Shown here in pieces: positions 1 through 16,669 of a stretch of 64,000 nt of DNA. The position numbers and the translations under genes were made by a program. The number at the start of each line of letters is the position of its first letter. Position 1 is the first letter of the stretch. The stretch is from a virus. Where the stretch lies: the IMG/VR virus record IMGVR_UViG_3300037504_000288. One strand, given 5' to 3'. Under the pieces are notes generated by a model. The model saw only the letters and a program-made list of their open reading frames with translations, searched no databases and was not told where the DNA came from.

Positions 1-3000
1 AGTGGCGTTCATGACAGGCGGCGTGTTGAGAACTGTCGCTACACTGCTGTTCTTCTTAGTAGAGTTACTGTTCGAATCGCTAGCTTGGCAACCTAGTACT
101 AGTTCGTCACTCTTATCATAATAATCGTGTGTTAAAAAACTATCTGTCGAGACGAGCGCGTCATTAACGAACCATTCATAATAATAGTTTAGCGTGTCGT
201 CCTCGTAATCAGTACCGTTGCAATAGCCTTGGACGCTCTCGTTGCTCAATGGTGGCGACGGCTCGAACCACGCGTTATCAACTGAAGGTGGCGTGTTGAG
301 CACTGTCAACGAAGTTTCGTTATACCATAACGAGTAATCATAAGAATCGCTAGCTCTACAACTGCCTGTCAGCACGTCTCCAGCTTCGAACTCGGAGCTT
401 GTTAAACTAGAATTATTATAAGAGTATGAAAAGTCAGATATATTATCAGCGTTTAACTGGTAGACTTTGTCGTCATAACTGCCCACGTACACGTAACCAT
501 CACTGACCGTCGGGGATGACTTAACAACACTTCCTGTAGTGTAGCTGTTGACAAGGCTCATGTCGCTAGCGTTGAGCTGGTAAACTTTGTTATCAACACT
601 ACCCACGTACACGTAACCATTACTGACCGTCGGGGATGACTCAACATTATCTCCTGTAGTATAACTATTAACAAGGCTCATGTCGGTAGCGTTGAGCTGG
701 TAGACTTTGTCATCAGCACAGCCCACGTACACATAACCGCCGCTGACCGTCGGGGATGACCAGACATAACTTCCTGTAGTGTAGCTGTTGACAAGGCTCA
801 TGTCGGTAGCGTTGAGCTGGTAGACTTTGTTATCTTCACTGCCAATGTACACATAACCATCGCTGACCGTCGGGGATGAGTAAACATTATCTCCTGTAGT
901 ATAACTATTAACAAGGCTCATGTCACTAGCGTTTAACTGGTAGACTTTGTCATCCCAACTGCCAACGTACACATAACCGTCACTGACCGTCGGGGATGAG
1001 TAAACATAACTTCCTGTAGTGTAGTTGTTGACAAGGCTCATGTCACTAGCGTTTAGCTGGTAGACTTTGTCATCCTGACTACCCACATACACGTAACCAT
1101 CGCTGACGGTCGGTGATGACCTAACAACACTTCCTGTAGTGTAGCTGTTAACAAAGTTCATGTCGGTAGCGTTTAACTGGTAGACTTTGTCATCATGACT
1201 GCCTACATACACATAACCGTCGCTGACCGTCGGGGATGAAAAAACTAAACTTCCTGTAGTGTAACTATTAACAAAGCTCATGTCACTAGCGTCTAGCTGG
1301 TAGACTTTGTTATCAAAACTGCCCACGTACACGTAACCATTACTGACCGTCGGGGATGATTTAACATAATCTCCTATAGTGTAGCTTATAGGCTCTGAAA
1401 ACTCATCGAGCACTTCATCACCGTTAACGTACCATGCATACTCGTAACCTGTTATAACATCACTATCGTAATCTTCAGCGTTACAAGTCATGTTTACTGT
1501 CGAGTTACCGTAGACTATTGCCGGGTCGAAGCTGATATTGTTAACAATAGGTGGCGTGTTCAGTATTTCCACTATCGTACTGTTTAAAGGGTTAGAATAG
1601 TTGTCGCCGTCGAAAGCTCTGCATTCTAGAGTCACGTTGTCGAAGTGCGAGTAGTAGCTAGTATCTAGCGTCTCGTTATCTGATAAGACACTCGCCTCGT
1701 TAACATACCATGTCTGGTTATAAACTAACTCTTCGGAGTCCGCGTCGTAACCCGTGCAGTTACTAGTTAGCGTCTCGTTACTTTTAGGGCTCGCCGGTAT
1801 TATCTGCGACGACACTATTTCAGGCACCGAGTTGCCAGTGTTGTAAACGCTGCTGTTAACCCAATCGCTGTAATTGTCGCCGTCGAAAGCGCGGCAGCTG
1901 CCTATTATATCGTCGCCTTTCGCAAAATTCGTGCTGTTCAGCTCTTGAGCAGTGCCAGCGCTAGTATTGTTAACGTACCATTCGTACCCGTAGCTTATAA
2001 CGTCCGAGTCGTCGACGTCTACAGCGTCGCACACTATGCTTATATCGTCGGTAGTGTCGAAGCTTCCAGGCGTGACGCTGACGTTATTAACCGCCGGTGG
2101 CGTGTTAAGCACTGTGTAAGAGCCGCTGGTCTCGTACGCTGAGTAATCCTCACCGTCGAAACCCCTGCACTCGAACGTTATATTATCTCCTTTCGCAAAG
2201 CTCGTATAGTTCAGCGAATCGCTAAAGTACGATACTTTATGATTGTAATCTCCTGATAAGAACAAGCTACCATCGTGTTTCGTGTGCATTGTGTAAAGGT
2301 AGGTGGCGTCAACTAGCAAGTAATCACTCACTATGTTAGTAGCCGTTTCTAATTCTTCACCTTCGAAGTTTATAACGTACAGAGTCTCGTTACGCTCCGC
2401 GTCTGGGTATTCCATAGTGGCGAACAAGTACCCTGACACTAATTGCGCGTCCCAGTAGCCGACTTCGCGCTCGACGAGCCGGTCGTCTATAGAATCGTTG
2501 TCCATGCTGAAACTCCCGTTGTTAACGAAAGCGCCTGTTGAAACGTTATACCTTTCAATGACAGTGTTCGAACCATCGTCTTTGAACAAGTACACAGTCT
2601 CACCGTCAACCACCGCGTTGTAATAAACGCCGGTCGTAGTTATAGCGTCGAGTTTCGAGACCATCCCCGCGCCATGCTCGTACAACCCAGCTCTAGAATC
2701 ACCGCTTGTCACGACTATCGTGCCGTCTTCTGCTTTTATCTTTTGCGAATACACGTCGGTGTCGTTATCGAGTTCCGCGACGTTGTTGTAAACAGTTGTT
2801 TGCGAGAGGTTGCCCTCGTCGTTTTCGTAGACTATAATTTTATCATCGCTGGTTATAGTGTACAAGCTGCCGTTGTCATAGTATAATTGCAAGTGTTCAT
2901 GAGCGTCGTTGTAGTCTGTGACTTCGAAGCTCGAGCCGTCATACTCGACAGCTTCCAACCCGCCGCTGTAAGTGATAGCGTACAAGTATTCACCGTCCGA

Positions 3001-6000
3001 ATCCGCGTAGCTATAACCTTCGAAGCTGTCGTCCCTTGCGAACTCCGACTCTACACTCTCGAGCGACTCGTTATATAAGAAAACGTTCATATAACTCTTG
3101 TGAGTGCTGTTGTAATCGAGCCCTGTACCGTACACGTACACCACGTAGTTATCGTATCCTGTCACGTCGTAGCTTGAGAACTCGCCGTTATAATAATGAG
3201 TCTCGTTACTAGGTGATAATTGCTCTAGCTCAACGACAGCGCCGTCGTCGTCAGCCCATCGGTACTCGTAACTCACGCTGTCATTATCATAATCGCTAGC
3301 CGCGCAATGGCCGGTTAGCGTCTCGTTGCTACGCGGCGGCACCGGCTCGTAATAAACCTCGTCGACCACCGGCGCAGTGTTAGAAACGGTCGTGTAATCG
3401 CTATACACCCTGCTGCTGTTCTCAGAACCGTTAGTCGCCACGCACGATATTCTTATATCATCGCCCTTGCTGTAATAACCGCGTGATAACTCGTCATCGT
3501 CCATGCCTAAACCTTGCACTTCTCCGGTCGTCAGCGCCTCGTCGAAGACTGCCACTTCCAAAACCAAACCCTCCGCATAGTCGCTAACCCCGCGCCGGTT
3601 CATCAAGTAAGCGTCGTTAGCATTACTAACACTGCCAGTGACGCTGCTAATATCGACAGTGTCTGTTAACACCCCGTCGTTATACATTCTAAACTCGCCA
3701 GCCGCCCTGTCCACGACCACCGCTAGCTTTTTATAATCGTCAGCCGCCAAGCTACCGCCACTGTTCGAATACACATTGTTCGAGCCGTCCGCTATCCTGA
3801 AGAAGAAATTGCTACCGCTGTCTTTCAAGAGCTGCCACCCTGCACCGTTAAAATCGTCCGGCTTCTTACCGATAATCTCCTGGGTCGAGCCTTCTTTGGT
3901 GAACGCGCCTTTCACGTATACTGTGAAGCTGCCAGTCCCGAAGTTTATAGACTCGTCGTTGTTAATAACTCCGTAATCGTCCACTCCGTCGAACTCTAAA
4001 CCGTCGCTAGCGACCGTCGCGCCCCTGAGCGTCGCGTCGTTAGAGTTAGCGCTATCGTCTGACAGCGTGTTATTAACGCGCACCACGCTGATGTTGGAAA
4101 CTGTGATGTTAACGTAAAAACTGTTATCCGCGTAAATGTTAACCCTGTAGTTGCCAGTGCTCTCCGCCACCAACCTCGCTGTTTTAAAACCTTCGGTCGT
4201 GAAACTTTCAATGTTGGACTGTGTTCCTGCTAGGAAGTTGTCATCGAGCTTGGTATTCACGTAGTTTAAAGTTCCGTCGTTGACAGTCAAGTTGAACGAT
4301 AACAAATACTCCTCGCCAGCAACCACGCTGAGAGTGTTGGTACCGACCGTTCCGTAATCACCACCTCCAGTCCCGGTGTTCACGCCTGTGAACTCCGAAA
4401 CGCCGTCGCTAGTGTAATTCTCGAAACCTATAATGGAACTAGGGTTTGCCAGGTTACTGACTAGGTTGCTAGTGTTATCAAGGATTACGCCGTCGTCGTA
4501 TAATAATCTTAAATCGTCGCTAGTAGTATTATCAACTTCCCAATGGTAACTATACCCGGTCGCCGTCCCGAAAGCGTCGGTGCAATAGCCAGTTGCTGAC
4601 TCGTTACTGTACACCGGCTCGTTAACGAACGCTTCTACCGAGTAGTTGCCAGTCGTAAAACTGTAAGGTCCTTGCATGACGCTCTCAACGCCGTTATCAA
4701 CTCCCACCATCCATTCATACTCGGTGTTTTTTGAAAGACCCTGCCACTCGTAAGTGCTCGTTTCAGAATGAGCAACGCCGCTGTTAGCTTGTAACAAAGC
4801 CACGTCACCGACCGTTGACATCTCGAAAGCTGAAACTCCACCAATATACCCGTAGTAGAACCTTGGTATCCCTTCGATAATCACGTAGTTGCCGTTCAAA
4901 TAAGAGTCTTCTAAAGAGTCAAAACTCATGTTCTGAACGACCGTGCTGTTAGAATCCCAGCCGCTACCGTTCCACGAGTAACCGTTTACAACATCGGAGG
5001 TTCTTTTAACAGTTATTAATTGTAACTCTCCGTTCTCGTCAGTGAACGCTTCAGGAACTCCGTCGCGCGGCCAGCCGCTAGCGAGCCCTGAAACTATAGT
5101 ATTGTTAGACTCCCAAGCGCTACTGTCCTCGTTATACTTGAACCCTACAGGTCCGCGGTCGTCGTGAATCAGGTACATTTCCGAGTCCAGCTCGAAAACG
5201 TCGAACTCCCACTGAGTGCCTGGGTCGAACCCGTTGTAATCGGTAGTCGACTCGAAAGCGCCGCTTGAATAGTTGAACTTGAACACACTATCGTTATCAC
5301 CGTCCGACACGAATAAGTACTCTTCATCGTTAAACCTTTGGAACTCGACGTGGTAAAAAAAGTCAGTGTTTGGCATAGTAATCCCTGAGGTTATCGGCTC
5401 GTGAAGACTCCACGCGCCATTCACAATTTTATAACTTGTAAAAGTCTCGGATGTAGAATTTATAACCGTCGCGTACCAGTTGTCATCATCAAGCTGGTAC
5501 ACTGCGACACTCATACCATCGCTACTGCCGGTAGAAATACCGTCTACTAACGAGTCGTTATACAACCAGTCATCACCTATATCGAGTGTGTAGTTGTAAA
5601 AGCTGACCGTCGCGTCGCCACCCTCGTCGTTGTAAACGGTCACGTTCAGCATCGGACTATCTGTATCGACAACGCTTGAGTCGCCAGGGTTGTTAACTAT
5701 CAGTAACAATTCCGACACTTGCACAGCGCTGCTGTTAAGCCAATCGCTGTAATCGTCGCCGTCGTACCCGCGGCACGATACTAAGTACTCTGACCCGAGG
5801 CTAGTGTTATCAGCTGATAACACCGAGCCGTTCGCGTAATAGACGCCATCATGGTACCACTCGTACTCGTAAAGTACTACGTCGTCGTCATAATCGCTAG
5901 CGTTACAATCGGCGACTAGCTCGTCATCGAGTCCCGGCTCGGAAGGCGTCACGTCCGCCTCTTCCATGAACGGCGGCGTGTTGAGAATCGTGACTTCAAA

Positions 6001-9000
6001 AGTCTCGTTATACGAGTATTGCTCGCCGTCGTTAGCCTGGCAAGCGAACGTTACGTTATCATCTTTTGAATAATCGGTAGTCGTAAGGTTTTGAGTGGTC
6101 GCCACAACCGCGTCGTTAACACTCCACCAATAATCGTAATAGACAGCGTCTCCGTCGTCATCGACAGCGTCGCAAACCCCTGTCAGGTTCTGACTGCTCA
6201 ACGGGCTCTCAGGGGTTATGCTGATGTTCTCTATGAACGGCGGTACATCAAACGCTACATAATTTAACACGGCAGTATTAGTGTTACTCGACACGAACAG
6301 CTCACCGTAATAAGTATTATTTATATCAACATAATCCATGAAGTTTGTTTCTTCGTTGAAAGTTGTCATTCTATTAAGATTAAAATTCTTATCGAACAAA
6401 TAATCTTGAAGTTTCGAGTTGGAATTATTAAACAAGACTACCGAGAAATAATTATCTGATATTGCCTTCATATCAATAATTTCTAAAGTGTTATTCAATA
6501 AAGAACTGCTCGCTGAACAGTCTGTTCCGTTTATGGAGCAATTTATAAATTTAATATTATCAGTATTGGCTGTACCAGGGTCGTTATCGAGATATATAGT
6601 AACTACATTATCACCTAATCGTGTAGTTCTAGTCTGTTGTAATTGTGTTGCTGGACTACTAAATGTTTCGAAATTAACAACGTTACAGTCGCTCAACGAA
6701 CTATCGTTATACTCGCAATTGAACTGGTGAAATCCATAATCACCATCACTCATCACGAAATTAAACCTATTATCGCCTATGAAAATAACATCCGTGTCGG
6801 CTCTTCCTTGTTTATTTGTCACAAGACTGACACCGTTAATAGTGGAATTTGAGTAATAACTTGAAAACTCGTTATCAAATATTTTTATACCAGGGTCAAC
6901 CTCTCCAGATGATGTATGATGTGCAAACTGATAATCATCGTTCAAATATCCGACTTCAATGTAATTTTTACTACGCCCCTCAACAAATATCTCAACAATG
7001 TTACAGTTTGTTAAATCATTATCGCACGTTGTTGCTTGTACGTCATTGAAACTATCACCCCTGAAAAAAGTAACATGTGTAGCATTATTATATGTCATAT
7101 CCAATAAATTATCTAAATCAGAAACGGAATCATATAATAACACTTCTGAAGAACACGAACTCAAATCAGTAGTACACTCCTTACCGTAATAATCATGAGT
7201 TCCGTCTTCATCAACAATATATACAATCGATAGATTACCTCCACCATTCTTAACACCGTATACACTTACCATCGATGAATTATTAGAAATAAGTGTGTAC
7301 TGCTCATCTAACGTGAACTCCCTGACCTCGCTGGTCGTGGTGTTAACACCGTCAGTAACTTCAGCGTACCATGAGTAATTATGCCCGTCATCGAACCCGG
7401 TCCAGTCGTAACTCACTGTGGTGCCGTTAGCGACGTTTGTTTCGTTATGTAACAATTCTGAAGGATTTTTTGAAATATTATCAGCGTTTAACTGGTAGAC
7501 TTTGTCGTCATAACTGCCCACGTACACGTAACCATCACTGACCGTCGGGGATGACTTAACAACACTTCCTGTAGTGTAGCTGTTGACAAGGCTCATGTCG
7601 GTAGCGTCTAGCTGGTAGACTTTGTTATCAAAACTGCCCACGTACACGTAACCGCCGCTGACCGTCGGGGATGACTCAACATTATCTCCTGTAGTGTAAC
7701 TATTAACAAGGCTCATGTCGGTAGCGTTTAACTGGTAGACTTTGTCATCAGCACAGCCCACGTACACATAACCGCCGCTGACCGTCGGGGATGACCAGAC
7801 ATAACTTCCTGTAGTGTAATTGTTGACAAGGCTCATGTCGGTAGCGTTGAGCTGGTAGACTTTGTTATCTTCACTGCCAATATACACATAACCGTCGCTG
7901 ACCATCGGGGATGAGTAAACATTACCTCCTGTAGTGTAGCTGTTGATAAAGCTCATGTCGGTAGCGTTTAATTGGTAGACTTTATTATCATAACTGCCAA
8001 CGTACACATAACCGTCGCTGACCGTCGGGGATGAGTAAACATAACTTCCTGTAGTGTAGCTGTTGACAAGGCTCATGTCACTAGCGTTTAGCTGGTAGAC
8101 TTTGTTATCTTCACTACCCACATACACGTAACCATCGCTGACGGTCGGTGATGACCTAACAACACTTCCTGTAGTGTAGCTGTTAACAAAGCTCATGTCA
8201 CTAGCGTTTAGCTGGTAGACTTTGTCATCATGACTGCCTACATACACATAACCGTCGCTGACCGTCGGGGATGAAAAAACTAAACTTCCTGTAGTGTAGC
8301 TGTTAACAAAGCTCATGTCACTAGCGTCTAGCTGGTAGACTTTGTTATCAAAACTGCCCACGTACACGTAACCATTACTGACCGTCGGGGATGATTTAAC
8401 ATAATCTCCTATAGTGTAGCTTCTATTCTCAGGAGTTCCACTATAGAAGCTAACGTTCATTGAATCAAGGTCAGCGTCAGTGACGGTCGCTGACAACTGC
8501 ACGTAATCCAGGTACGTGGTGTAATTGTCAGGCGGTGATAAACTCTCGATGACCGGCGGTTCTTGAGATTGCACCTCGAACGATTGGATTTCTGTTTCGG
8601 TGGTAGATGTTTGGTCACTTACCTCGGCGGACCATGAATAAGTTGTATCATTCGACAACCCGGTCCAGTCGTAAGTCACTGTGGTGCCGTTAGCGACGTT
8701 TGTTTCGTTATGTAACAATTCTGAAGGATTTTTTGAAATATTATTAGCGTTTAACTGGTAGACTTTATCATCAAAACTGCCAACGTACACATAACCGTTA
8801 CTAACGGTCGGGGATGACCAAACATCAAGTCCTGTTGTGTAGCTGTTGACAAAGCTCATGTCACTAGCGTTGAGCTGGTAGACTTTTTCATCCCAACTGC
8901 CCACGTACACGTAACCGTCGCTGACCGTCGCTGATGAAAGAACATTATCTCCTGTAGTATAATTATTAACAAGGCTCATGTCAGTAGCATTTAACTGGTA

Positions 9001-9900
9001 GACTTTGTCATCCTGACTGCCCACGTACACGTAACCGCCGCTGACCGTCGGGGATGACCAAACATCACTTCCTGTAGTGTAGTTGTTAACAAGGCTCATG
9101 TCACTAGCGTTGAGCTGGTAGACTTTGTCATCATTACTACCAACGTACACATAACCATCGCTGACGGTCGGGGATGACCTAACATAACTTCCTGTAGTAT
9201 AACTATTAACAAAACTCATGTCGCTAGCGTTTAACTGGTAGACTTTGTTATCATAACTGCCAACGTACACGTAACCGCCGCTGACCGTCGGGGATGACCT
9301 AACATCATCTCCTGTAGTGTAGCTGTTGACAATGCTCATGTTACTAGCGTTGAGCTGGTAGACTTTGTCATCATGACTGCCAACGTACACGTAACCGTCG
9401 CTGACCGTCGGGGATGACTTAACATCATCTCCTGTAGTGTAACTATTAACAAAGCTCATGTCGGTAGCGTTTAACTGGTAGACTTTGTCATCATAACTGC
9501 CAACGTACACATAACCGTCGCTGACCGTCGGGGATGACCTAACATCATCTCCTGTAGTGTAGCTGTTGACAAGGCTCATGTCACTAGAGTTGAGCTGGTA
9601 GATTTTGTCATCCAAACTGCCCACGTACACGTAACCATTACTGACCGTCGGTGATGACTCAACACCACTTCCTGTAGTGTAGCTTCTAATCTCAGGAGTT
9701 CTACTATAGAAGCTAACGTTCATTGAATCAAGGTCAGCGTCAGTGACGGTCGCTGACAACTGCACGTAATCCAGGTACGTGGTGTAATTATCAGGCGGTG
9801 ATAAACTCTCGATGACAGGCGACGCAGCTATTACTACATCAACTACAGTGAATAATGATAGAATTATTATAAAAATGAGTAATATTAATCGCTTGTTCAC
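1..9900 (-). CDS. giant secreted surface/adhesin-like protein (partial: >3,290 aa in window, C-terminus lies beyond window start); Ig-like modules + three 8-bladed PQQ-type beta-propellers
   Basis: Minus-strand frame opens after an in-frame TAG (9946-9948) with GTG at 9900 and is free of stops down to position 1; the ORF track lists no minus-strand M..stop ORF >71 aa in 1..9900, which is only possible if this frame has no stop inside the window. Translation: signal peptide VNKRLILLIFIIILSLFTVVDVVIAASP; repeated ~70-aa modules (TPPxV...C.A.DxDGD.V.Y.Y.WY.N / C.A.DGD.YS.W.NSS); three arrays of eight ~40-aa repeats SSPTVSDGYVYVGSxDDKVYQLNAxDMSxVNSYTTG (PQQ-like propeller blades). I hand-translated ~8470->5740 contiguously without stops. 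Confidence 0.7.
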   Translation of the reverse strand, partial: MNKRLILLIFIIILSLFTVVDVVIAASPVIESLSPPDNYTTYLDYVQLSATVTDADLDSMNVSFYSRTPEIRSYTTGSGVESSPTVSNGYVYVGSLDDKIYQLNSSDMSLVNSYTTGDDVRSSPTVSDGYVYVGSYDDKVYQLNATDMSFVNSYTTGDDVKSSPTVSDGYVYVGSHDDKVYQLNASNMSIVNSYTTGDDVRSSPTVSGGYVYVGSYDNKVYQLNASDMSFVNSYTTGSYVRSSPTVSDGYVYVGSNDDKVYQLNASDMSLVNNYTTGSDVWSSPTVSGGYVYVGSQDDKVYQLNATDMSLVNNYTTGDNVLSSATVSDGYVYVGSWDEKVYQLNASDMSFVNSYTTGLDVWSSPTVSNGYVYVGSFDDKVYQLNANNISKNPSELLHNETNVANGTTVTYDWTGLSNDTTYSWSAEVSDQTSTTETEIQSFEVQSQEPPVIESLSPPDNYTTYLDYVQLSATVTDADLDSMNVSFYSGTPENRSYTIGDYVKSSPTVSNGYVYVGSFDNKVYQLDASDMSFVNSYTTGSLVFSSPTVSDGYVYVGSHDDKVYQLNASDMSFVNSYTTGSVVRSSPTVSDGYVYVGSEDNKVYQLNASDMSLVNSYTTGSYVYSSPTVSDGYVYVGSYDNKVYQLNATDMSFINSYTTGGNVYSSPMVSDGYVYIGSEDNKVYQLNATDMSLVNNYTTGSYVWSSPTVSGGYVYVGCADDKVYQLNATDMSLVNSYTTGDNVESSPTVSGGYVYVGSFDNKVYQLDATDMSLVNSYTTGSVVKSSPTVSDGYVYVGSYDDKVYQLNADNISKNPSELLHNETNVANGTTVSYDWTGFDDGHNYSWYAEVTDGVNTTTSEVREFTLDEQYTLISNNSSMVSVYGVKNGGGNLSIVYIVDEDGTHDYYGKECTTDLSSCSSEVLLYDSVSDLDNLLDMTYNNATHVTFFRGDSFNDVQATTCDNDLTNCNIVEIFVEGRSKNYIEVGYLNDDYQFAHHTSSGEVDPGIKIFDNEFSSYYSNSTINGVSLVTNKQGRADTDVIFIGDNRFNFVMSDGDYGFHQFNCEYNDSSLSDCNVVNFETFSSPATQLQQTRTTRLGDNVVTIYLDNDPGTANTDNIKFINCSINGTDCSASSSLLNNTLEIIDMKAISDNYFSVVLFNNSNSKLQDYLFDKNFNLNRMTTFNEETNFMDYVDINNTYYGELFVSSNTNTAVLNYVAFDVPPFIENISITPESPLSSQNLTGVCDAVDDDGDAVYYDYWWSVNDAVVATTQNLTTTDYSKDDNVTFACQANDGEQYSYNETFEVTILNTPPFMEEADVTPSEPGLDDELVADCNASDYDDDVVLYEYEWYHDGVYYANGSVLSADNTSLGSEYLVSCRGYDGDDYSDWLNSSAVQVSELLLIVNNPGDSSVVDTDSPMLNVTVYNDEGGDATVSFYNYTLDIGDDWLYNDSLVDGISTGSSDGMSVAVYQLDDDNWYATVINSTSETFTSYKIVNGAWSLHEPITSGITMPNTDFFYHVEFQRFNDEEYLFVSDGDNDSVFKFNYSSGAFESTTDYNGFDPGTQWEFDVFELDSEMYLIHDDRGPVGFKYNEDSSAWESNNTIVSGLASGWPRDGVPEAFTDENGELQLITVKRTSDVVNGYSWNGSGWDSNSTVVQNMSFDSLEDSYLNGNYVIIEGIPRFYYGYIGGVSAFEMSTVGDVALLQANSGVAHSETSTYEWQGLSKNTEYEWMVGVDNGVESVMQGPYSFTTGNYSVEAFVNEPVYSNESATGYCTDAFGTATGYSYHWEVDNTTSDDLRLLYDDGVILDNTSNLVSNLANPSSIIGFENYTSDGVSEFTGVNTGTGGGDYGTVGTNTLSVVAGEEYLLSFNLTVNDGTLNYVNTKLDDNFLAGTQSNIESFTTEGFKTARLVAESTGNYRVNIYADNSFYVNITVSNISVVRVNNTLSDDSANSNDATLRGATVASDGLEFDGVDDYGVINNDESINFGTGSFTVYVKGAFTKEGSTQEIIGKKPDDFNGAGWQLLKDSGSNFFFRIADGSNNVYSNSGGSLAADDYKKLAVVVDRAAGEFRMYNDGVLTDTVDISSVTGSVSNANDAYLMNRRGVSDYAEGLVLEVAVFDEALTTGEVQGLGMDDDELSRGYYSKGDDIRISCVATNGSENSSRVYSDYTTVSNTAPVVDEVYYEPVPPRSNETLTGHCAASDYDNDSVSYEYRWADDDGAVVELEQLSPSNETHYYNGEFSSYDVTGYDNYVVYVYGTGLDYNSTHKSYMNVFLYNESLESVESEFARDDSFEGYSYADSDGEYLYAITYSGGLEAVEYDGSSFEVTDYNDAHEHLQLYYDNGSLYTITSDDKIIVYENDEGNLSQTTVYNNVAELDNDTDVYSQKIKAEDGTIVVTSGDSRAGLYEHGAGMVSKLDAITTTGVYYNAVVDGETVYLFKDDGSNTVIERYNVSTGAFVNNGSFSMDNDSIDDRLVEREVGYWDAQLVSGYLFATMEYPDAERNETLYVINFEGEELETATNIVSDYLLVDATYLYTMHTKHDGSLFLSGDYNHKVSYFSDSLNYTSFAKGDNITFECRGFDGEDYSAYETSGSYTVLNTPPAVNNVSVTPGSFDTTDDISIVCDAVDVDDSDVISYGYEWYVNNTSAGTAQELNSTNFAKGDDIIGSCRAFDGDNYSDWVNSSVYNTGNSVPEIVSSQIIPASPKSNETLTSNCTGYDADSEELVYNQTWYVNEASVLSDNETLDTSYYSHFDNVTLECRAFDGDNYSNPLNSTIVEILNTPPIVNNISFDPAIVYGNSTVNMTCNAEDYDSDVITGYEYAWYVNGDEVLDEFSEPISYTIGDYVKSSPTVSNGYVYVGSFDNKVYQLDASDMSFVNSYTTGSLVFSSPTVSDGYVYVGSHDDKVYQLNATDMNFVNSYTTGSVVRSSPTVSDGYVYVGSQDDKVYQLNASDMSLVNNYTTGSYVYSSPTVSDGYVYVGSWDDKVYQLNASDMSLVNSYTTGDNVYSSPTVSDGYVYIGSEDNKVYQLNATDMSLVNSYTTGSYVWSSPTVSGGYVYVGCADDKVYQLNATDMSLVNSYTTGDNVESSPTVSNGYVYVGSVDNKVYQLNASDMSLVNSYTTGSVVKSSPTVSDGYVYVGSYDDKVYQLNADNISDFSYSYNNSSLTSSEFEAGDVLTGSCRASDSYDYSLWYNETSLTVLNTPPSVDNAWFEPSPPLSNESVQGYCNGTDYEDDTLNYYYEWFVNDALVSTDSFLTHDYYDKSDELVLGCQASDSNSNSTKKNSSVATVLNTPPVMNAT
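450..1410 (-). repeat. array of eight 120-bp in-frame tandem repeats (beta-propeller blades); ~93-95% nt-identical to 7480..8440
   Basis: Direct reading: unit ...agcgtt(g/t)a(g/a)ctggtagactttgt(c/t)atc...acgtacac(g/a)taacc...gaccgtcggggatga...cctgtagtgtagctgttgacaaggctcatgtc repeated every 120 bp. Confidence 0.9.
7480..8440 (-). repeat. second array of eight 120-bp tandem repeats; near-identical copy of 450..1410
   Basis: Line-by-line comparison of 7501-7900 with 481-880 shows only scattered substitutions. Confidence 0.9.
8740..9700 (-). repeat. third, more divergent array of eight 120-bp repeats (N-proximal propeller)
   Basis: Same 120-bp periodicity and conserved core gaccgtcggggatga / ctggtagactttgtcatc. 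Confidence 0.85.
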
Positions 9901-9960: not shown

Positions 9961-9984
9961 ATTTATATATATATTTATTTTTTT
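9961..9984 (-). promoter_or_regulatory. class-2 promoter (A-run + (TA)n + AAAT(G/A)AG) for the giant gene
   Basis: Minus-strand reads AAAAAAAATAAATATATATATAAATGAG ~60-85 nt upstream of GTG 9900; same motif at 13101..13122, 18574..18599 and (plus strand) 35276..35299. Confidence 0.5.
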
Positions 9985-12730
9985 AACGCTCGCCCTTCTT
10001 GTACGGACCGCGACGATAGGTTGCGTTACTCTCTTTCAAGTACTCAGCGTACTCGGGGTCGAACTGCGCCGCCTGGTTCGGCGACACGGTATCCCAGTCG
10101 ATGCGCGGCGCGCCGTAACTAGCTCGTTGTTGAAACTGTGGTCGTTGCGCTGGCTCTCGCATTTGAGGCTGCGGTTGCGGTCTTGGCATCTGTCGTTGTA
10201 TTTGAGGTTGCGGTTGCGGTCTTGGCTCGAACTGCGGTTTTTGCGGTTGTTGCGCGCTTTGCATCATGCCATCTTGCATTTGTTGTTGCATCCTGCGCTG
10301 CATCGCTTGCTGCTCCTTGACCTCGTCAACAGTCTGACCTCCGAGCGATTCGCCGACCTTAGCGTTGTAATCGGCGCCTTGACCGCTTTCACCGACCGAT
10401 TCCATGACCTTCTGACCGAACGACGCGTTGTAACCGCTTTCACCGACCGATTCCGCGATAGCGTAAGCGCCGCTTCCCGGGCTCATCCCGGTCAACGCTG
10501 AAGCATTGCTCGACAGCCCGGCGCTGCCCTGACCGCCGATGACGTTAACAGTGCCTTTAGCGAGGTTGGAGCCGCCCATCTTACTCACGCCGGTGACGTC
10601 GCCGTAGTCCTTAGGCTTCTCGGTACCGCCGACTAGCGACCCTAGCATGTTACTACCTGCCTTGAGCTTGTTCTCCCATAACGCCATCTGCCCCTTCTGA
10701 CGGTCGGCGCGTAATTGCTCTTGCTGGAGCTTGAACTTGCGCTCGTCCATTTTCTGGTCGCGAGCGAACTTTTGGCGTTTCAGAACCCGGTCCTGGGCGC
10801 GGTCGAGCTTGTCGACCTCGAACTGGTCTTCATGGAGCTTGAACTTGCGCTCGTCCATTTTCTGGTCGCGAGAGAATTTTTGGTGTTTCAAAACCCGGTC
10901 CTGGGCGCGGTCGAGCTTGTCGTACTCGAACTGCTCTTTCTTGAAACCTAGCTCCTCAGTCTTGAACAAGTACTCGTTAATGTTCTTGGCGGACTCCTTG
11001 CCGCGCTTAGCGCGAGCGTCCTCCTCAAGCCGGCGTTGTGCGTATAAGTCTTTCAAGACAGCACTGTACCTGGTACGCTCGCGGTCTTTCAAATTCGGGT
11101 CCTCCATGTACCCGGTGATTCGTGATATTTGCGCGTCTAAATCAGTCAGCCCTGCTGAATCTGCCGTGGACTTTGATGCATTACTTTTAACGCCTTCTGC
11201 CTCTGCCTCGTTAGTCGTCGAGAACGAGAACGATTTGCCGTCAAAATTAAAATCTGTAGTATCATACTCCTCGGACGGTTGGTCGAACCCTGCATTATTA
11301 CTTCGCATACCGTCAGTACCACCTACGCCGCCGGTGTAATCAGCACCTACGTTCCCAGCACCACTAGTGTCGCCACGGTACATGTCGGTATCACCAGCGA
11401 CATCGCCGTAAAACTGCTCGTCGTCAGGCTCGTAATAAGGCATCAAGCCCATAAAATGAAGAGAGTCCTTTGACGACACGCCGTTCATCTTGTACGGCTC
11501 GCCGTACACTGGCTCAACACCTTTGTCATCGTCGCCATAAACCGAGGGCTGACCCGACGGTTGCGTTGTCGAAACCCCTGTCTCGCCGACCGCCACTAAA
11601 TCCTTGTCGCCCATGTAACTTGTTAGTTTGTGTTGCTCTCCTTGTTTAGTAGGGTCTAAAGGGTCGCAATCCAAAATGTTAGCAAGCTTGTCACCGTCGT
11701 AATCGCCGAACATCGATAATCCGCGCTGTTGGCGTAACCTTTTCTTAGAAGTCTTCTCAGGGTTGCCAAGCCCGCCCATCATCCTGTTAATATCAACCCC
11801 GGTGCGCTCGAACATCTTCGAAGGGTCTGTGTTAATATTGCTCTTGAAATAATCGTTGAACTTGCTCTTCTGACCACTAAGGTTTTGAGCGCCGGTCTTG
11901 AACATATTATTAACATTGTTCATTCCGATTGCACTATTGATTTTGTTGAGCGCGTTGTTCTTGGTCAGGTTCATGTCGAACCCTGCGTTAGCGGACACTT
12001 TATTCTGAACGTTGAACTCGTGCTTCATATCAAGCCCGGGTAGCGCTCTAGAACCGACGCCGGTACCTATGAAATTGTTCACATCAAATTTATTGGATGC
12101 CGAAAACTTCTTCATGAAATCATTATTATTAGAAGTGGTTTTGAAGAAGTCTTTAATGACGTTCTCAGTCTTATTTTTAGTATTGGACGCTGAGAACATC
12201 GAGTTCATGTCGATATTACTAGTGCCTAACTTTTTACCGCCCAGCATGCTACCGTCGAACTTTGGCGTGCTATTCTTAGCGCCGCCAAGGATTCCGGACA
12301 GGTCCCTTTTGGAACCGTTGACGAGACCGGTAATAAGACTCTTATTACTCGAGCCGTTATTCTTTGTCATCGAACTCACCTTCTTCAAAGGGTCTTCGGA
12401 ATTGCCGAAGAACCCGCTCATGTTTGAACCGTTCATTTTCTCGGACATTTTAAAACCACCAGATTGTTTTGTCAAAAATCGTAATCGTTGAGAGTACTCC
12501 TGAGCGCCGCCGATGCCGGGCATCTTACCGTCTAGGAAGAAGCTGGAACGCTGACCGCCCATCACCTTGTCGTCGAACCCGACGGGTTGTAACACGTTAG
12601 TTAAATTATCCTTCGAGTAGTTATCCTCGAAGCTAGCGCCCGGGTCGTCAGCGTTACTCTCGTCAACCCCCATCGCTTTACCTTGGAATATTCCTGAAGC
12701 GTTATTATGTATCATTATTAATTTCTCCAT
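9983..12730 (-). CDS. large low-complexity protein (915 aa): Gly/Asn/Ser-rich N-part, internal 36-aa duplication, PQ-rich C-terminus
   Basis: ORF track; composition; C-terminus QPQKPQFEPRPQPQPQIQRQMPRPQPQPQ. Function unknown (possibly virion-associated given position next to other large proteins). Confidence 0.6.
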   Translation of the reverse strand: MEKLIMIHNNASGIFQGKAMGVDESNADDPGASFEDNYSKDNLTNVLQPVGFDDKVMGGQRSSFFLDGKMPGIGGAQEYSQRLRFLTKQSGGFKMSEKMNGSNMSGFFGNSEDPLKKVSSMTKNNGSSNKSLITGLVNGSKRDLSGILGGAKNSTPKFDGSMLGGKKLGTSNIDMNSMFSASNTKNKTENVIKDFFKTTSNNNDFMKKFSASNKFDVNNFIGTGVGSRALPGLDMKHEFNVQNKVSANAGFDMNLTKNNALNKINSAIGMNNVNNMFKTGAQNLSGQKSKFNDYFKSNINTDPSKMFERTGVDINRMMGGLGNPEKTSKKRLRQQRGLSMFGDYDGDKLANILDCDPLDPTKQGEQHKLTSYMGDKDLVAVGETGVSTTQPSGQPSVYGDDDKGVEPVYGEPYKMNGVSSKDSLHFMGLMPYYEPDDEQFYGDVAGDTDMYRGDTSGAGNVGADYTGGVGGTDGMRSNNAGFDQPSEEYDTTDFNFDGKSFSFSTTNEAEAEGVKSNASKSTADSAGLTDLDAQISRITGYMEDPNLKDRERTRYSAVLKDLYAQRRLEEDARAKRGKESAKNINEYLFKTEELGFKKEQFEYDKLDRAQDRVLKHQKFSRDQKMDERKFKLHEDQFEVDKLDRAQDRVLKRQKFARDQKMDERKFKLQQEQLRADRQKGQMALWENKLKAGSNMLGSLVGGTEKPKDYGDVTGVSKMGGSNLAKGTVNVIGGQGSAGLSSNASALTGMSPGSGAYAIAESVGESGYNASFGQKVMESVGESGQGADYNAKVGESLGGQTVDEVKEQQAMQRRMQQQMQDGMMQSAQQPQKPQFEPRPQPQPQIQRQMPRPQPQPQMREPAQRPQFQQRASYGAPRIDWDTVSPNQAAQFDPEYAEYLKESNATYRRGPYKKGER
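10728..10943 (-). repeat. in-frame 108-bp direct duplication (2 copies) inside CDS 9983..12730
   Basis: agcttgaacttgcgctcgtccattttctggtcgcgag(c/a)gaa(c/t)ttttgg(c/t)gtttca(g/a)aacccggtcctgggcgcggtcgagcttgtcg... occurs at 10728 and 10836; encodes duplicated FE(Y/V)DKLDRAQDRVLK(H/R)QKF(S/A)RDQKMDERKFKL. Confidence 0.85.
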
Positions 12731-12771
12731 ATATTAATTAATATATAAACTGATAGTCTACCGTGCGCTCG

Positions 12772-13075
12772 TCAATAATCTTGTTCTTTCCTGAAACTAG
12801 CGACGAGCATGTAAATGATGACTATGATGAATAATATGAAAGGGAGCGAATGAAAAAAATCCATGTACTTGTCAATGCTAGAATGGATTTTAACGCTCGT
12901 GGCGTTGTCAATGTTGCTACCTAGCATTGTCGTATTATCAGTCAAGCCTTTAATAGTAGGCACGAGGTGCGCGTCAAAGACCTGGGTGAAAGTTATGTAT
13001 ATAATACCTAATCCGAAAAGCGTCACGAGCCCGAAAACCCATGTGAACCCTGTCGAGTAACCTTTCCTATTCATC
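12772..13075 (-). CDS. small membrane protein (~100 aa, 2 TM helices)
   Basis: Track ORF 12772..13149 overlaps the upstream gene by 50 nt; internal ATG ATG at 13075 (MMNRKGYSTGFTWVFGLVTLFGLGIIYITF...) lies ~30 nt after a class-2 promoter motif and an aaggtag SD, so the shorter start is preferred. Confidence 0.5.
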
Positions 13076-13099
13076 ATAATACTACCTTTGAAGTATAAC

Positions 13100-16000: not shown

Positions 16001-16669
16001 GCCCTTGTCAGACTGCAACTTGTTATAAGTCTCGACAGGGATGCCTTCGCGATAGCCAAGCTCGTAATCAGGAGGTTTAATAACGCCCTTGTCGTAAGCC
16101 TCAGCTAAATCCTCATAAGTCTCTCTAGAAGGCTCGGTTGCCAGCTCCGGATTATCGCGTATAACGTTCTCGCGACGGAGCCTTTTAGAATCACGACGAG
16201 CCTTTGAACGCCTAGCTTGCAAGCCTCGCTTCTCGAACTCTGAAAAGCCCTGAGCTTGAGAACGCGCCATCGCTTCAGACTTGGAAACACTCTGGCCGCT
16301 CTTAGCATCTGAAAATCCAGACCCTGACTGCTCGAAACGACTATTGTCGATTATAGAAGACGCTTGCTGTTGACTAACACCTTTTTGGTCATTGAAGAAA
16401 TCGCTAGCGTAATCAACGCCGCCAAGACGCTGCTCTCGAGCCGCGACTTGAGCGTTCAAGCTAGCAATATCGCCAGACTGAACAGCCTTGTGAATCTCGT
16501 CAGGAGTATGCACGACACGCCCTGAACTGTCAACATGACCGTAATCAGCGCTGGTAGTGCCCTTGTAACTCGAAGGCGCTTTCGAACCTTTGCGCACACC
16601 GCTAGAGCTAGAGCTAGAAGTAGATTGCCGAACCTTGTTATAATCAATATAAGAGCTTGGGTCTGCCAT
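13100..16669 (-). CDS. large protein (1189 aa) with coiled-coil segments, Gly-rich regions and (QAQS)n repeat; function unknown, possibly structural
   Basis: ORF track; low-complexity composition; C-terminus ends ...KSKSKKYIYK. Confidence 0.6.
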   Translation of the reverse strand: MADPSSYIDYNKVRQSTSSSSSSGVRKGSKAPSSYKGTTSADYGHVDSSGRVVHTPDEIHKAVQSGDIASLNAQVAAREQRLGGVDYASDFFNDQKGVSQQQASSIIDNSRFEQSGSGFSDAKSGQSVSKSEAMARSQAQGFSEFEKRGLQARRSKARRDSKRLRRENVIRDNPELATEPSRETYEDLAEAYDKGVIKPPDYELGYREGIPVETYNKLQSDKGGFSNYMNRMFGSKKTDEIAIERLEARRADIIDSSGESFVYDEGSDARSKIYGVMEDYSPVGLSGAPTSKVGSFGKEDFGTGYKVSSVEDLESRGSVIKERVSTLSEKQSDVDAQLKPIMNTLSNIRSRKSELIEEYSTDNYIDPETGRRVVPVADSEFSQGKDKRLEDDTLFVKKSSFEPDNYQVEIRPEGYDKLVALEDTERSILSSNKELFEESERLRSEASGLKGDVEDLNYQVTLQQDKALSDKLETDRLSSRIKDIEELDPLEQYKNQLTSYAKGGATGRYVTASAGKLGLGVADVARDVLSTGYQFGQNVAEDFSESDNKLQTLSNYLPGGGFRSQARSIANTGKFDLDADSAGNALLGVFYDTDDYYNKDRGFMKRMDWDTTSGALTLATLGVAGSGTKAGSVVAKGVDKLAKGYATFKPAMEAGKLAVGSGVSLASGDDEFRELFYEKRGKFDEYMREGISASRGSIESGAGKALAEWLPMSDLAFGSKKDFKTAIIDKAVREGYSEKDAEELARAMHAQFVGGEVVELGSVVGANVGAERIGRKAFSSAGRKALSGSSKTIQRPFTQSFGKIAPAGVYEGAGVYTTAKAAGYEDVKVNELVGAGAGGGLTSGAISGAINLGRSGRMFSRSALKSTKPAVKYSKRAGRAVEIGGYLADLVEYPADKLTTFIYGKGDDVFMRGYTGVKGGVSSAFTGGRSRDASQSFALTDGGSLQSEISYDIDSLGTPVSSPVTSKSYGRGTSSSLADSQSFASSQPQPQEFSRTQPLTSPQSQSQAQAQPQAQSQAQSQAQSQAQSQAQSQAQSQAQSQAQVQANTATFSGTFPLPGLGGGLGGGGRRFGAVGAFGSGRLVNNPLADYAGAWRRRQRAKRERMTGYDYAQNSVDRMFGDDIASGRRFRELNGGPLDNRMPNANTRTFGNQRGKKTAAKQSSDSIGTALKKLGEKFKSKSKSKKYIYK
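13101..13122 (-). promoter_or_regulatory. class-2 promoter overlapping the last codons (KKYIYK*) of the upstream gene
   Basis: rc = AAAAAAATATATATATAAATAAG; 25-30 nt upstream of start 13075. Confidence 0.45.
13535..13665 (-). repeat. ~24-bp tandem repeat (gcttgtgattgagcttgagactgc)n encoding (QAQSQAQS)n
   Basis: Direct reading of 13541-13660. Confidence 0.85.

What the first reader, a model, noticed from the sequence alone, without database searches (positions are those of the whole stretch)
1..9900. Giant (>3,290 aa, still open at window edge) signal-peptide surface protein with three 8-bladed PQQ-type propellers and Ig-like module repeats
A single minus-strand frame is open for the entire first 9.9 kb and continues past position 1. 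Its product has a cleavable-looking signal peptide. It has repeated Ig-like modules with the motifs C.A.D.DGD..Y.Y.WY and C.A.DGD.YS. It has three arrays of exactly eight ~40-aa PQQ-like blades (DDKVYQLNAxDMSxVNSYTTGSxVxSSPTVSDGYVYVGS). Each array is preceded by a conserved ~45-aa module (SPPDNYTTYLDYVQLSATVTDADLDSMNVSFYS). A protein of this size and architecture in a virus-like element suggests a host-attachment or adhesion structure. PQQ-propeller repeats are otherwise typical of archaeal cell-surface proteins.
Basis: seen in the sequence. Interest (0 to 1): 0.65.

Follow-up and report, generated by a model that had tools for sequence, protein, structure and literature searches.

The report
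Giant modular viral surface adhesin
The first 9.9 kb of the window encodes the front 3,300 residues of a giant exported protein from an uncultured virus lineage; it is a stalk of small Ig-like modules, several of which open at a fixed loop to display binding domains (three near-symmetric eight-bladed propellers, a lectin-like domain and orphan domains), and it is most likely a membrane-anchored host-attachment protein.

Summary
Window 9900→1 (minus strand) is one open frame of 3,300 codons. It has a GTG start, a signal peptide, and three arrays of exactly eight 40-aa PQQ/BamB-type blades. One detail is wrong: only arrays 1 and 2 follow the "SPPDNYTT" module. All three propellers, a LamG-containing region and two orphan domains are in fact inserted at a fixed loop of split β-sandwich modules. 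Bacterial RTX mega-adhesins use this architecture to project ligand-binding domains. Blades are about 80% identical, and variation is concentrated at positions 5, 6, 8 and 23, which are predicted to lie on the top face. Syntenic relatives always carry a large signal-peptide protein at this position, with a variable front. Where the C-terminus was recovered (three relatives, two of them syntenic), there is a conserved ~900–1,000-aa C-terminal domain and a three-helix membrane anchor. One complete relative is 5,293 aa. None of the relatives has PQQ propellers. The element is virus-like: it has IMG/VR relatives and viral-type replication genes, but no capsid gene was identified. The host is unknown, possibly archaeal. 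Best reading: a membrane-anchored, multivalent host-attachment protein. This is a new variant of a known kind and moderately interesting.

The parts
9826..9900 (-). GTG start and signal peptide (aa 1-25, MNKRLILLIFIIILSLFTVVDVVIAA|S)
   Evidence: all relatives' proteins at this position have comparable signal peptides
9685..9825 (-). F-module 1, N-half (SPPDNYTT...NVSFYS), aa 26-72
8722..9684 (-). PQQ/BamB-type 8-bladed propeller 1 (aa 73-393), inserted in F-module 1
   Evidence: Pfam, TRF, AF2 pLDDT ~98 with 32 strands, Foldseek Cake8 TM 0.93 and BamB
8563..8721 (-). F-module 1, C-half (aa 394-446)
   Evidence: four strands in the AF2 model at pLDDT 55-60; collinear alignment of joined halves
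8422..8562 (-). F-module 2, N-half (aa 447-493)
   Evidence: F1 vs F2 joined, z=48
7459..8421 (-). PQQ-type propeller 2 (aa 494-814), inserted in F-module 2
7300..7458 (-). F-module 2, C-half (aa 815-867)
6241..7299 (-). In-line orphan domain (aa 868-1220) with four C..D..C motifs; GC 0.33 against 0.45-0.52 for the rest of the gene
   Evidence: no Pfam hit; one weak hit among 1.84 billion representatives; GC
5710..6240 (-). Two intact Cys-type Ig-like modules (aa 1221-1397)
   Evidence: HMM scores about 120 bits; Ig_2 6.4e-05, below the Pfam cut-off
4621..5709 (-). F-module 3, split (aa 1398-1440 + 1701-1760), carrying orphan insert 1 (aa 1441-1700)
   Evidence: joined F3 aligns to joined F1 across both halves, z=11.2, 0/500 shuffles; no Pfam hit for the insert
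3376..4620 (-). Split Ig module a (aa 1761-1794 + 2134-2175) carrying a ~340-aa insert with a LamG domain (aa ~1971-2129)
   Evidence: split HMM hits; joined halves score 34.5 bits over profile 14-89; Laminin_G_3 8.8e-14, 52.3 bits vs cut-off 27.6
2098..3372 (-). Split Ig module b (aa 2177-2235 + 2560-2601) carrying orphan insert 2 (aa 2236-2559)
   Evidence: split HMM hits; joined halves score 83.2 bits over profile 1-90; insert has no homologue
1552..2097 (-). Two intact Ig-like modules (aa 2602-2783)
   Evidence: AF2 pLDDT 97.3; Foldseek matches tandem FnIII/Ig pairs
289..1551 (-). Split Ig module c (aa 2784-2831 + 3150-3204) carrying PQQ-type propeller 3 (aa 2832-3149, window 454-1407)
   Evidence: split HMM hits; joined halves score 70.9 bits over profile 1-90; propeller 3 is a whole-array duplicate of propeller 2
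1..288 (-). Intact Ig-like module (aa 3205-3294) and the first 6 residues of the next module; the ORF continues beyond the window
9983..24834 (-). Conserved upstream gene module that the giant gene terminates: SF2 helicase, P-loop ATPase (two inteins), four small proteins, 607-aa and 1189-aa proteins, a 2-TM ~103-aa protein (12775-13083), and a 915-aa protein
   Evidence: collinear in L003, L006, L015, L018, L020, L025, L030, L031

Best explanation
Window 9900-1 encodes the N-terminal 3,300 residues of a giant surface protein of an uncultured virus lineage. The protein is Sec-exported, very acidic and probably N-glycosylated. It is a chain of ~90-aa Ig/FnIII-like beta-sandwich modules. Six of these modules are 'split' at one fixed loop, and each split module carries a globular guest domain: three eight-bladed PQQ/BamB-type propellers, a LamG-containing region and two orphan domains. 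A seventh, orphan domain sits in line.

By analogy with the positionally equivalent genes of relatives (one is complete at 5,293 aa), the missing C-terminus probably contains more Ig modules, a conserved ~900-1,000-aa domain and a three-helix membrane anchor.

Proposed mechanism: the C-terminus anchors the protein in a membrane, either a virion envelope or inner membrane or initially the infected cell's membrane. The beta-sandwich chain acts as an extender. The guest domains project sideways from their split modules and act as multivalent ligand-binding heads for host-surface glycans or proteins. Specificity would be tuned in two ways: by hypervariable top-face residues on recently amplified propeller blades, and by wholesale swapping of guest domains between virus lineages.

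Shown: the ORF, the domain inventory, the split-module topology at sequence level, the propeller and Ig folds (predicted), the pattern of blade variability, the sequon enrichment, and the synteny and anchor in relatives. Inferred: the C-terminal anchor of this particular protein, its location in the virion, ligand binding, and a role in host range.
For: ORF, start and signal peptide. Propellers: Pfam 1.5e-170 and 9e-86; AF2 pLDDT ~98 with 8x4 strands, where the N-terminal strand completes the last blade so that the chain ends are adjacent; Foldseek gives Cake8 TM 0.93 at rmsd 0.9 A, and BamB.

Split modules: HMM hits break at profile position ~47-50 on either side of each insert. In-silico excision restores a single full-length match (83.2, 70.9 and 34.5 bits), whereas unexcised controls match only the N-half. 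The insertion point maps to the loop after strand 4 of a confidently modelled module. The F-type modules behave the same way (z=11.2).

Blade variability: 18 of 40 positions are invariant in all 24 blades. Positions 5, 6, 8 and 23 reach entropies of 1.4, 2.4, 2.7 and 3.1 bits. They differ in 80% of blade pairs, while synonymous codon differences at invariant positions occur in 19%. By the AF2 strand assignment they lie in the D-A and B-C loops, which form the top face in the canonical propeller topology (established knowledge).

Sequons: 117 observed against 58.8+-6.4 in shuffles. The reversed control motif (counted on the non-propeller part) is at that part's background (39 vs 40.3+-5.4 expected, 91 observed), and cytoplasmic window proteins are not enriched.

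Relatives: the module is collinear in 9 loci, and every large protein at this position has a signal peptide and an unrelated N-terminal part. LamG recurs in L006 and L011. The conserved C-terminal domain plus three TM helices is seen in L019, L025 and the complete 5,293-aa L003/L033 protein, which also has split Ig modules.

Precedents: RTX adhesins project ligand-binding domains from Ig-like split domains, and the adjacent N and C termini of those domains are a hallmark (PMC12077191). Membrane-embedded spikes of pleolipoviruses and large adhesin genes of spindle-shaped archaeal viruses are known (PMC10791045; bioRxiv 10.1101/2025.02.15.638363).
Against: The C-terminus of this protein lies outside the window, and the source contig is in none of the collections. 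Its anchor is therefore inferred only from relatives that share Ig modules at 34-38% identity.

No capsid, portal, terminase or other virion hallmark was recognised anywhere in the window or the relatives. Virion incorporation is untested, and even 'virus' is indirect.

AF2 did not model the half-modules flanking propeller 1 with confidence (pLDDT 32-60), so the nested topology rests on sequence profiles.

No ligand is known for any guest domain, and three domains have no detectable homologues. The blade variability pattern could in part reflect gene conversion of the scaffold and not positive selection.
Confidence: 0.55

Rival explanations
1. The protein is virus-encoded but is not a virion component. 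It is exported to the surface of the infected cell, where it remodels adhesion. It might glue infected cells to other cells or surfaces, promote contact with new hosts, or block superinfection.
For: The Sec signal peptide plus C-terminal membrane anchor (in relatives) target the host membrane first. No virion hallmark genes were identified near it. One copy of the module sits in a MAG of a DPANN archaeon, a group that lives attached to other cells.
Against: The gene ends a strongly conserved module rich in small hydrophobic and large low-complexity proteins, which looks structural. A hypervariable distal part joined to a conserved proximal part is the usual pattern for receptor-binding proteins. 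Membrane-containing viruses acquire such proteins from the host membrane anyway, so the two readings overlap.
Confidence: 0.2
2. The element is not a virus. It is a plasmid, a genomic island or a stretch of a small archaeal (for example DPANN) genome, and the giant protein is a cellular adhesin used for cell-cell attachment.
For: No capsid or packaging genes were found. PolB, PCNA and RFC are also cellular archaeal genes. Module copies occur in two MAGs. The Ig modules are homologous to those of giant cellular surface proteins.
Against: Two relatives are IMG/VR viral contigs of 83 and 116 kb. The window has no tRNA, rRNA or other Rfam family, and no housekeeping gene in 64 kb. The clamp loader and helicase match phage families strongly (phrog_168 2.6e-65, phrog_16 4e-55). 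A Tad2-like anti-defence protein and three inteins are present. Most ORFs have no Pfam hit at all.
Confidence: 0.12
3. The single giant ORF is an assembly artefact, with repeat arrays collapsed, expanded or mis-joined because blades are 80-98% identical at the DNA level.
For: Blades share up to 98% nt identity, and arrays 2 and 3 share an exact 126-nt run. Short-read assemblers can mis-join such repeats.
Against: Each array has exactly eight blades with no indel, which is the number needed to close the predicted propeller. Each propeller is flanked by matching N- and C-halves of the same module type (F/F, F/F, Ig/Ig), and a cross-array mis-join would break that pairing. Arrays carry distinct variable-residue signatures. 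A relative has an intact 5,293-aa ORF of the same design.
Confidence: 0.03
4. The propellers are catalytic PQQ-dependent dehydrogenase domains and the protein is an extracellular enzyme.
For: The Pfam family names contain 'PQQ'.
Against: The hits are to the non-enzymatic PQQ_2 (BamB) and ACSF4 propeller families. Structural neighbours are BamB and designed scaffolds, with no dehydrogenases among the top 50. Near-identical blades leave no room for a differentiated active site.
Confidence: 0.02

Closest known systems
RTX mega-adhesins of Gram-negative bacteria (MpIBP, FrhA, AhLap) with Ig-like 'split domains'
   Same: Giant size (AhLap is 5,047 aa); tandem Ig-like beta-sandwich extender modules; ligand-binding domains, including lectin-like ones, that bud out of a split Ig-like module and return to complete it; acidic, Asp-rich modules (PMC12077191, PMC7493085; here).
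   Different: No RTX nonapeptide repeats in 3,300 aa, nor in the complete 5,293-aa relative. [quoted passage not shown] Relatives end in a three-helix membrane anchor. Binding domains sit toward the N-terminus. Six split modules here against two or three. The genetic context is virus-like. There is no sequence homology beyond generic Ig modules.
Membrane-anchored spikes and large adhesins of archaeal viruses (pleolipovirus VP4/VP5 spikes; fusellovirus tail fibre/adhesin; >1,900-codon adhesin genes of nanohaloarchaeal spindle-shaped viruses)
   Same: A protein exported by signal peptide and anchored in a membrane; the gene lies in a conserved collinear block; a large variable receptor-binding protein (PMC10791045; bioRxiv 10.1101/2025.02.15.638363).
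   Different: No sequence similarity to any deposited phage or archaeal virus. It is two to ten times larger. The genome context is 64-116 kb with its own replisome genes. The nested-domain architecture and propellers have not been described for those proteins.
Highly repetitive ('recently amplified') beta-propellers (Pereira & Lupas 2022, PMC9218822)
   Same: Median blade identity is 0.80, above that study's 60% cut-off. The family is PQQ-like, which is among those with repetitive members. Such propellers occur in all kingdoms, including viruses.
   Different: Here there are three such propellers in one chain, each nested in a beta-sandwich module. Variation is focused on four positions per blade, and one array is a whole-array duplicate of another.
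BamB / PQQ_2 and ACSF4-type eight-bladed propellers, and the designed symmetric propellers Cake8 and Tako8
   Same: Eight four-stranded blades. Foldseek TM is 0.93 (rmsd 0.9 A, 30% identity) to Cake8 and about 0.8 to BamB. Pfam scores are far above the cut-offs.
   Different: It is not a lipoprotein of an outer-membrane assembly machine and has no BAM context. The closest natural relative is a 719-aa secreted protein on an unrelated virus-like contig (63% identity).

Membership tests
PQQ_2 / Beta-prop_ACSF4 (BamB-like) beta-propeller superfamily | Profile match above the curated cut-off | tested here: met
   PF13570 567 bits (cut-off 133); PF13360 288 bits (cut-off 27.6)
PQQ_2 / Beta-prop_ACSF4 (BamB-like) beta-propeller superfamily | Closed toroid of eight four-stranded blades | tested here: met
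   AF2 gives 32 strands at pLDDT ~98; Foldseek matches 8-bladed Cake8 and BamB. This is a prediction, not an experiment.
PQQ-dependent dehydrogenases | Match to the PQQ enzyme repeat family and a differentiated cofactor or active site | tested here: not met
   Only PF13570 and PF13360 are reported at E<=0.01; blades are near-identical; no dehydrogenase among the top 50 structural matches
Highly repetitive (recently amplified) beta-propellers | Internal blade sequence identity of at least 60% | tested here: met
   Median pairwise blade identity is 0.80 in each array; criterion from PMC9218822
Laminin_G_3 / concanavalin A-like lectin domain | Profile match above the curated cut-off | tested here: met
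   PF13385 52.3 bits vs 27.6, E 8.8e-14, aa ~1971-2129
Ig-like / FnIII-like beta-sandwich modules | Beta-sandwich fold in tandem repeats | tested here: met
   AF2 pLDDT 97.3; Foldseek matches titin FnIII tandems and cytokine receptors at E ~1e-6. Pfam Ig_2 scores only 23.5 bits, below the cut-off of 27.
RTX adhesins | Tandem Ig-like extenders plus ligand-binding domains projecting from split domains | tested here: met
   criterion from PMC12077191. Sequence-level evidence only.
RTX adhesins | RTX nonapeptide (GGxGxD) beta-roll | tested here: not met
   No GGxGxD motif in the 3,300 aa or in the complete 5,293-aa relative
RTX adhesins | [quoted passage not shown] | tested here: not met
   The N-terminus is a Sec-type signal peptide. 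The C-terminus is not in the window; relatives end in three TM helices.
Membrane-anchored viral spike (pleolipovirus-like) | Signal peptide plus C-terminal transmembrane anchor | tested here: inconclusive
   The signal peptide is present. The anchor is seen only in relatives L019, L025 and L003/L033. The window ends before the C-terminus.
Membrane-anchored viral spike (pleolipovirus-like) | Sequence homology to known spikes, and presence in virions | tested here: not met
   No tblastn match of the conserved C-terminal domain or module proteins to 50,697 phage and archaeal-virus records or to the PDB. Virion presence is not testable here.
Diversity-generating retroelement target | Variable codons derived from AAY, plus a nearby template repeat and reverse transcriptase | tested here: not met
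   Codons at positions 8 and 23 include AGG, TGG, GAG, CAG and GAA. No reverse transcriptase was found among the ORFs scanned, though not every ORF was scanned.

The most novel reading that the evidence does not exclude
The window belongs to an undescribed lineage of large (64-116 kb or more), membrane-protein-rich, possibly archaeal (DPANN-associated) viruses. Their attachment protein would be a 3,300-5,300-aa 'split-domain display scaffold' that has converged on bacterial RTX adhesins: a conserved anchor and Ig stalk into whose fixed loops different binding cassettes are swapped between lineages. In this virus the cassettes include freshly amplified eight-bladed propellers whose top-face residues are diversifying, so they would work as evolvable receptor-binding modules.
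Probability: 0.3. Interest if true: 0.75.

Novelty: new variant of a known kind. Interest (0 to 1): 0.6.

Why it matters
If the reading is right, this is among the largest proteins encoded by a prokaryote-type virus. The gene takes up 13.7% of a 116-kb relative and at least 15% of this window. It would also show that the 'split-domain' way of displaying ligand-binding heads, so far described for bacterial RTX adhesins, is used by a viral lineage as well, with cassettes exchanged at a fixed loop.

The three near-symmetric propellers, with variation confined to four positions per blade, offer a natural example of a repeat scaffold being diversified for recognition. That is useful for studying how new propellers arise and for binder design.

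The conserved module (ATPase, small proteins, two-TM protein, anchored giant) has no match in PHROGs, Pfam, the PDB or deposited virus genomes. It therefore marks an uncharacterised virus group found in saline and sediment metagenomes, and its host range is probably set by this gene.

Tried and rejected
- **Extending the contig.** An exact 49-mer from window 1-49 was absent from the viral, metagenome and genome collections. The neighbouring 915-aa protein is not on record.
- **Full-length homologue search.** It timed out.
- **Halophile hypothesis.** The giant's pI is 4.05, but the other window proteins have pI 6-10, so this was rejected.
- **Relatives of the N-terminal 480 aa in IMG/VR.** None found.
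- **Megablast of 24 kb against phage records.** No match.
- **PHROG and Pfam scans of structural-module proteins.** No hits except inteins.
- **Alignment-guided AF2 of a split module with its insert.** MAFFT placed intact modules inside the propeller (0 of 65 modules aligned to both halves), so I modelled intact modules instead and used in-silico excision.
- **Walking along the IMG/VR contig by exact pattern.** This returned the same stored block. It was solved by querying with the conserved C-terminal domain.
- **Orphan domains.** Insert 2 has no homologue at E<=0.001. The in-line domain has one weak hit, to a repetitive Gram-positive-type protein, and it is uninformative.
- **Conserved ATPase and C-terminal domain.** No PDB or GenBank-virus matches.
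- **DGR mechanism.** Rejected from codon patterns.
- **Cell-wall sorting motifs** (PGF-CTERM, LPxTG) and RTX repeats. Absent.
Full report
**Observation.** Translating window 9990-1 on the minus strand gives two stops, then an open frame from the GTG at 9900 to position 1. That is 3,300 codons with no stop, running off the window. A GGTGG motif lies about 8 nt upstream of the GTG, and an A/T-rich stretch lies 60-85 nt upstream. The N-terminus (MNKRLILLIFIIILSLFTVVDVVIAA|SP) is the only strongly hydrophobic segment.

The protein is very acidic (D+E 484, K+R 119, pI 4.05) and rich in S, V, N, T and Y. The other window proteins have pI 6-10. The acidity therefore belongs to this protein and is not a halophile signature.

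**Propellers.** There are 24 G[YF]VY[VI]G motifs at strict 40-residue spacing in three groups of eight. Tandem Repeats Finder reports period 120, 7.8 copies, 83-85% matches and no indels at 448-1386, 7483-8421 and 8745-9684. Pfam gives Beta-prop_ACSF4 (1.5e-170) and PQQ_2/BamB (9e-86) and nothing else for the whole protein.

AlphaFold2 on aa 26-480 with 52 aligned sequences gives pLDDT ~98 for residues 47-360, with 32 strands. One N-terminal strand is followed by seven complete four-stranded blades and then three strands. The first strand therefore completes the last blade, and the domain's two chain ends are neighbours.

The closest solved structures are designed, perfectly symmetric eight-bladed proteins: Cake8 (TM 0.93, rmsd 0.9 Å, 30% identity), v31Bagel8 and Tako8. 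BamB follows at TM ~0.8. More than 455 database proteins match at E ≤ 1e-10, from archaea, Streptomyces and many unnamed metagenomic sources. The best is a 719-aa secreted protein (63% identity) on an unrelated contig of small unknown ORFs.

**Blade variation.** Median pairwise blade identity is 0.80 in each array. That places these among the 'highly repetitive' propellers described by Pereira & Lupas (PMC9218822).

- Eighteen of 40 positions are invariant in all 24 blades.
- Positions 5, 6, 8 and 23 have entropies of 1.4, 2.4, 2.7 and 3.1 bits and carry chemically diverse residues.
- These four positions differ in 80% of blade pairs, whereas codons of invariant residues differ synonymously in 19% of pairs.
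- With the AF2 strand assignment (A = positions 12-14, B = 17-21, C = 26-31, D = 37 to position 2 of the next blade), the three most variable positions fall in the D-A and B-C loops. These form the 'top' face in the canonical propeller topology. This last step is my inference from established knowledge, not a measurement.
- Arrays 2 and 3 share almost the same variable-residue signature, so one is a whole-array duplicate of the other. Array 1 has its own signature.
- The variable codons are not AAY-type, so a diversity-generating retroelement is not indicated.

**Nested architecture.** An HMM built from the five intact Cys-type modules shows something more specific. Three further copies are split at profile position ~47-50:

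- aa 1761-1794 + 2134-2175, around a ~340-aa insert that contains LamG (PF13385, 8.8e-14);
- aa 2177-2235 + 2560-2601, around an orphan ~325-aa insert;
- aa 2784-2831 + 3150-3204, around propeller 3.

Joining the halves in silico restores one full-length match (83.2, 70.9 and 34.5 bits). Unexcised controls match only the first half.

Propellers 1 and 2 sit the same way inside a second module type (SPPDNYTT…NVSFYS + …TYDWTGLS…SFEV). A third, diverged copy of that module hosts another orphan insert (aa 1441-1700). The joined copies align collinearly across both halves (z = 11.2, 0/500 shuffles).

Two intact modules fold as β-sandwiches at pLDDT 97.3. The insertion point is the loop after the fourth strand. 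Structural neighbours are tandem FnIII/Ig pairs. One more orphan domain (aa 868-1220) lies in line. Its GC is 0.33 against 0.45-0.52 for the rest of the gene, and it has a single weak hit among 1.84 billion representatives. Insert 2 has no homologue at all.

The flanking halves of propeller 1 were not modelled confidently. The nested topology therefore rests on profile evidence.

**Glycosylation signal.** N-X-S/T sequons are about two-fold enriched: 117 against 58.8 ± 6.4 in shuffles, and 91 against 40.3 ± 5.4 without the propellers. The reversed control motif, counted on the non-propeller part, is at background (39). Cytoplasmic window proteins are not enriched. This fits N-glycosylation, which is common on archaeal surface proteins (my knowledge), but it does not settle the host.

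**Context.**
- The window has no tRNA and no Rfam family.
- Genes diverge from a 2-kb gap at ~28 kb, where cumulative GC skew is lowest.
- The plus-strand half carries an intein-containing PolB, a PCNA-like protein, a clamp loader (phrog_168, 2.6e-65), helicases and nucleases. It also carries NYN, PARP/Tpt1-like, Band_7 and Tad2-like proteins.
- The minus-strand half has almost no Pfam or PHROG hits.

**Relatives.** The 915-aa neighbour and the well-conserved two-TM ~103-aa protein were used as queries. They found two IMG/VR contigs (116 kb and 82.6 kb), 23 metagenome contigs and two MAG contigs. One MAG is labelled *Candidatus* Iainarchaeum and the other Thermotogaceae.

The gene order is collinear in nine loci: helicase, P-loop ATPase, four small proteins, large proteins, two-TM protein, 915-aa-like protein.

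In every locus with enough sequence the next gene encodes a large protein (1,340 to over 2,114 aa) with an N-terminal signal peptide. The N-terminal parts are mutually unrelated, and LamG recurs in two of them. The complete proteins in L019 and L025 share a ~900-aa C-terminal domain (46% identity) that ends in three hydrophobic helices.

Querying with that domain recovered the far end of the 116-kb contig. Merging the pieces gives a complete 5,293-aa protein with:

- a signal peptide;
- Ig modules homologous to those of the window (34-38% identity), of which 14 are intact and several are split at the same loop;
- the conserved C-terminal domain;
- three TM helices.

None of the relatives has PQQ blades. 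In the 82.6-kb relative the anchored protein is followed by small hydrophobic proteins and further signal-peptide proteins. Nothing in the module matches deposited phage or archaeal-virus genomes or the PDB.

**Interpretation.** Four features point to a receptor-binding surface protein:
- a variable distal part joined to a conserved proximal domain and anchor;
- a fixed position at the end of a conserved module;
- a Sec signal;
- sequon enrichment.

The closest architectural precedent is the RTX adhesins. There, ligand-binding domains 'emerge from split domains', have adjacent N and C termini, and present their binding site away from the junction (PMC12077191). The same features are seen or predicted here. 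However, RTX repeats are absent, and the secretion and anchoring logic differs, so this is an analogue and not a member.

Archaeal viruses with membrane-embedded spikes, and spindle-shaped viruses with adhesin genes of more than 1,900 codons, provide viral precedents. Whether the protein ends up on virions or only on infected cells cannot be decided from sequence. Whether the host is archaeal also remains open.

**Artefact check.** Several points argue against mis-assembly:
- each array has exactly eight blades with no indel;
- the half-modules flanking each propeller match in type;
- the arrays have their own variable-residue signatures;
- a relative has an intact ORF of the same design.

Arrays 2 and 3 do share a 126-nt exact run, so long-read confirmation remains desirable.

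**Verdict.** The adhesion interpretation is plausible and is now backed by comparative evidence. The most informative new points are the split-module display design, the focused blade variability, and the conserved anchor seen in relatives. This is a new variant of known kinds (giant modular adhesins, viral receptor-binding proteins, recently amplified propellers) in an uncharacterised virus lineage.

Noticed in passing
window 20284-22780 (-): A conserved P-loop ATPase (intein-free 367-aa orthologue at L003:386-1489, 62-75% identity) is interrupted by two inteins only six extein residues apart (…MEKNYLE|CLDGDT…VVHN|SFVNYW|CVTGDT…). The second intein has an HNH-like region that ends in a stop, and its C-terminal splicing block resumes in another frame as ORF 20284-20871. 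This could be a frameshift, a decaying intein, or a split-intein-like arrangement.
   Followed up: partly
window 49997-52582 (+): The family B DNA polymerase also contains an intein (Intein_splicing 4.6e-11), which makes three inteins in 64 kb.
   Followed up: no
window 27081-29141: A 2-kb gene-free divergent region lies at the cumulative GC-skew minimum. It has an iteron-like motif, TTCTGCCAAG / CTTGGCAGA, recurring at least 7 times in both orientations, and a 27-nt inverted repeat (96% complementary, 28202-28228 / 28614-28640). It is a candidate replication origin.
   Followed up: partly
window 62296-62745 (+), 57810-58682 (+), 36668-38881 (+), 34802-35299 (+): Tad2-like (Thoeris anti-defence) domain (2.2e-7); SPFH/Band_7 protein (5.8e-30); a 737-aa protein with weak PARP/Tpt1-like hits; and a NYN nuclease.
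   Followed up: no
window 6241-7299 (-), inside the giant gene: The in-line orphan domain has GC 0.33, while the rest of the gene is 0.45-0.52. Relatives' genomes are 0.29-0.34. The gene is a compositional mosaic, which suggests it was assembled from pieces of different origin.
   Followed up: no
L002 (ENA k141_388942, 14.9 kb), gene 3484-5643: The closest natural relative of the propellers (63% identity) is a 719-aa signal-peptide protein with eight near-identical blades. Its blades vary at the same positions. It sits on an unrelated contig of small unknown ORFs that also looks viral.
   Followed up: partly
L030 and L031 (genome contigs): The conserved module occurs in a MAG labelled Candidatus Iainarchaeum (DPANN; 44-kb contig PWLL01000077.1) and in a MAG labelled Thermotogaceae (13-kb contig). 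This may be co-binning of viral contigs. The host signals conflict.
   Followed up: no
L032 (IMGVR_UViG_3300002053_001113) 3000-13090: In this relative the role is divided between two adjacent genes. One encodes an 1,807-aa secreted LamG/DUF2341 protein with no detectable anchor domain. The other encodes a 1,556-aa protein with its own signal peptide and the conserved C-terminal domain. Small hydrophobic proteins and three more signal-peptide proteins follow.
   Followed up: partly
window 9983-12730 (-) and 13100-16669 (-): The 915-aa neighbour is Q-rich and mildly sequon-enriched (16 vs 7.8 expected). The 1,189-aa protein's homologue in L003 has Gly-rich hydrophobic stretches. Both are poorly conserved (26-31% identity) and have no family assignment.
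   Followed up: no
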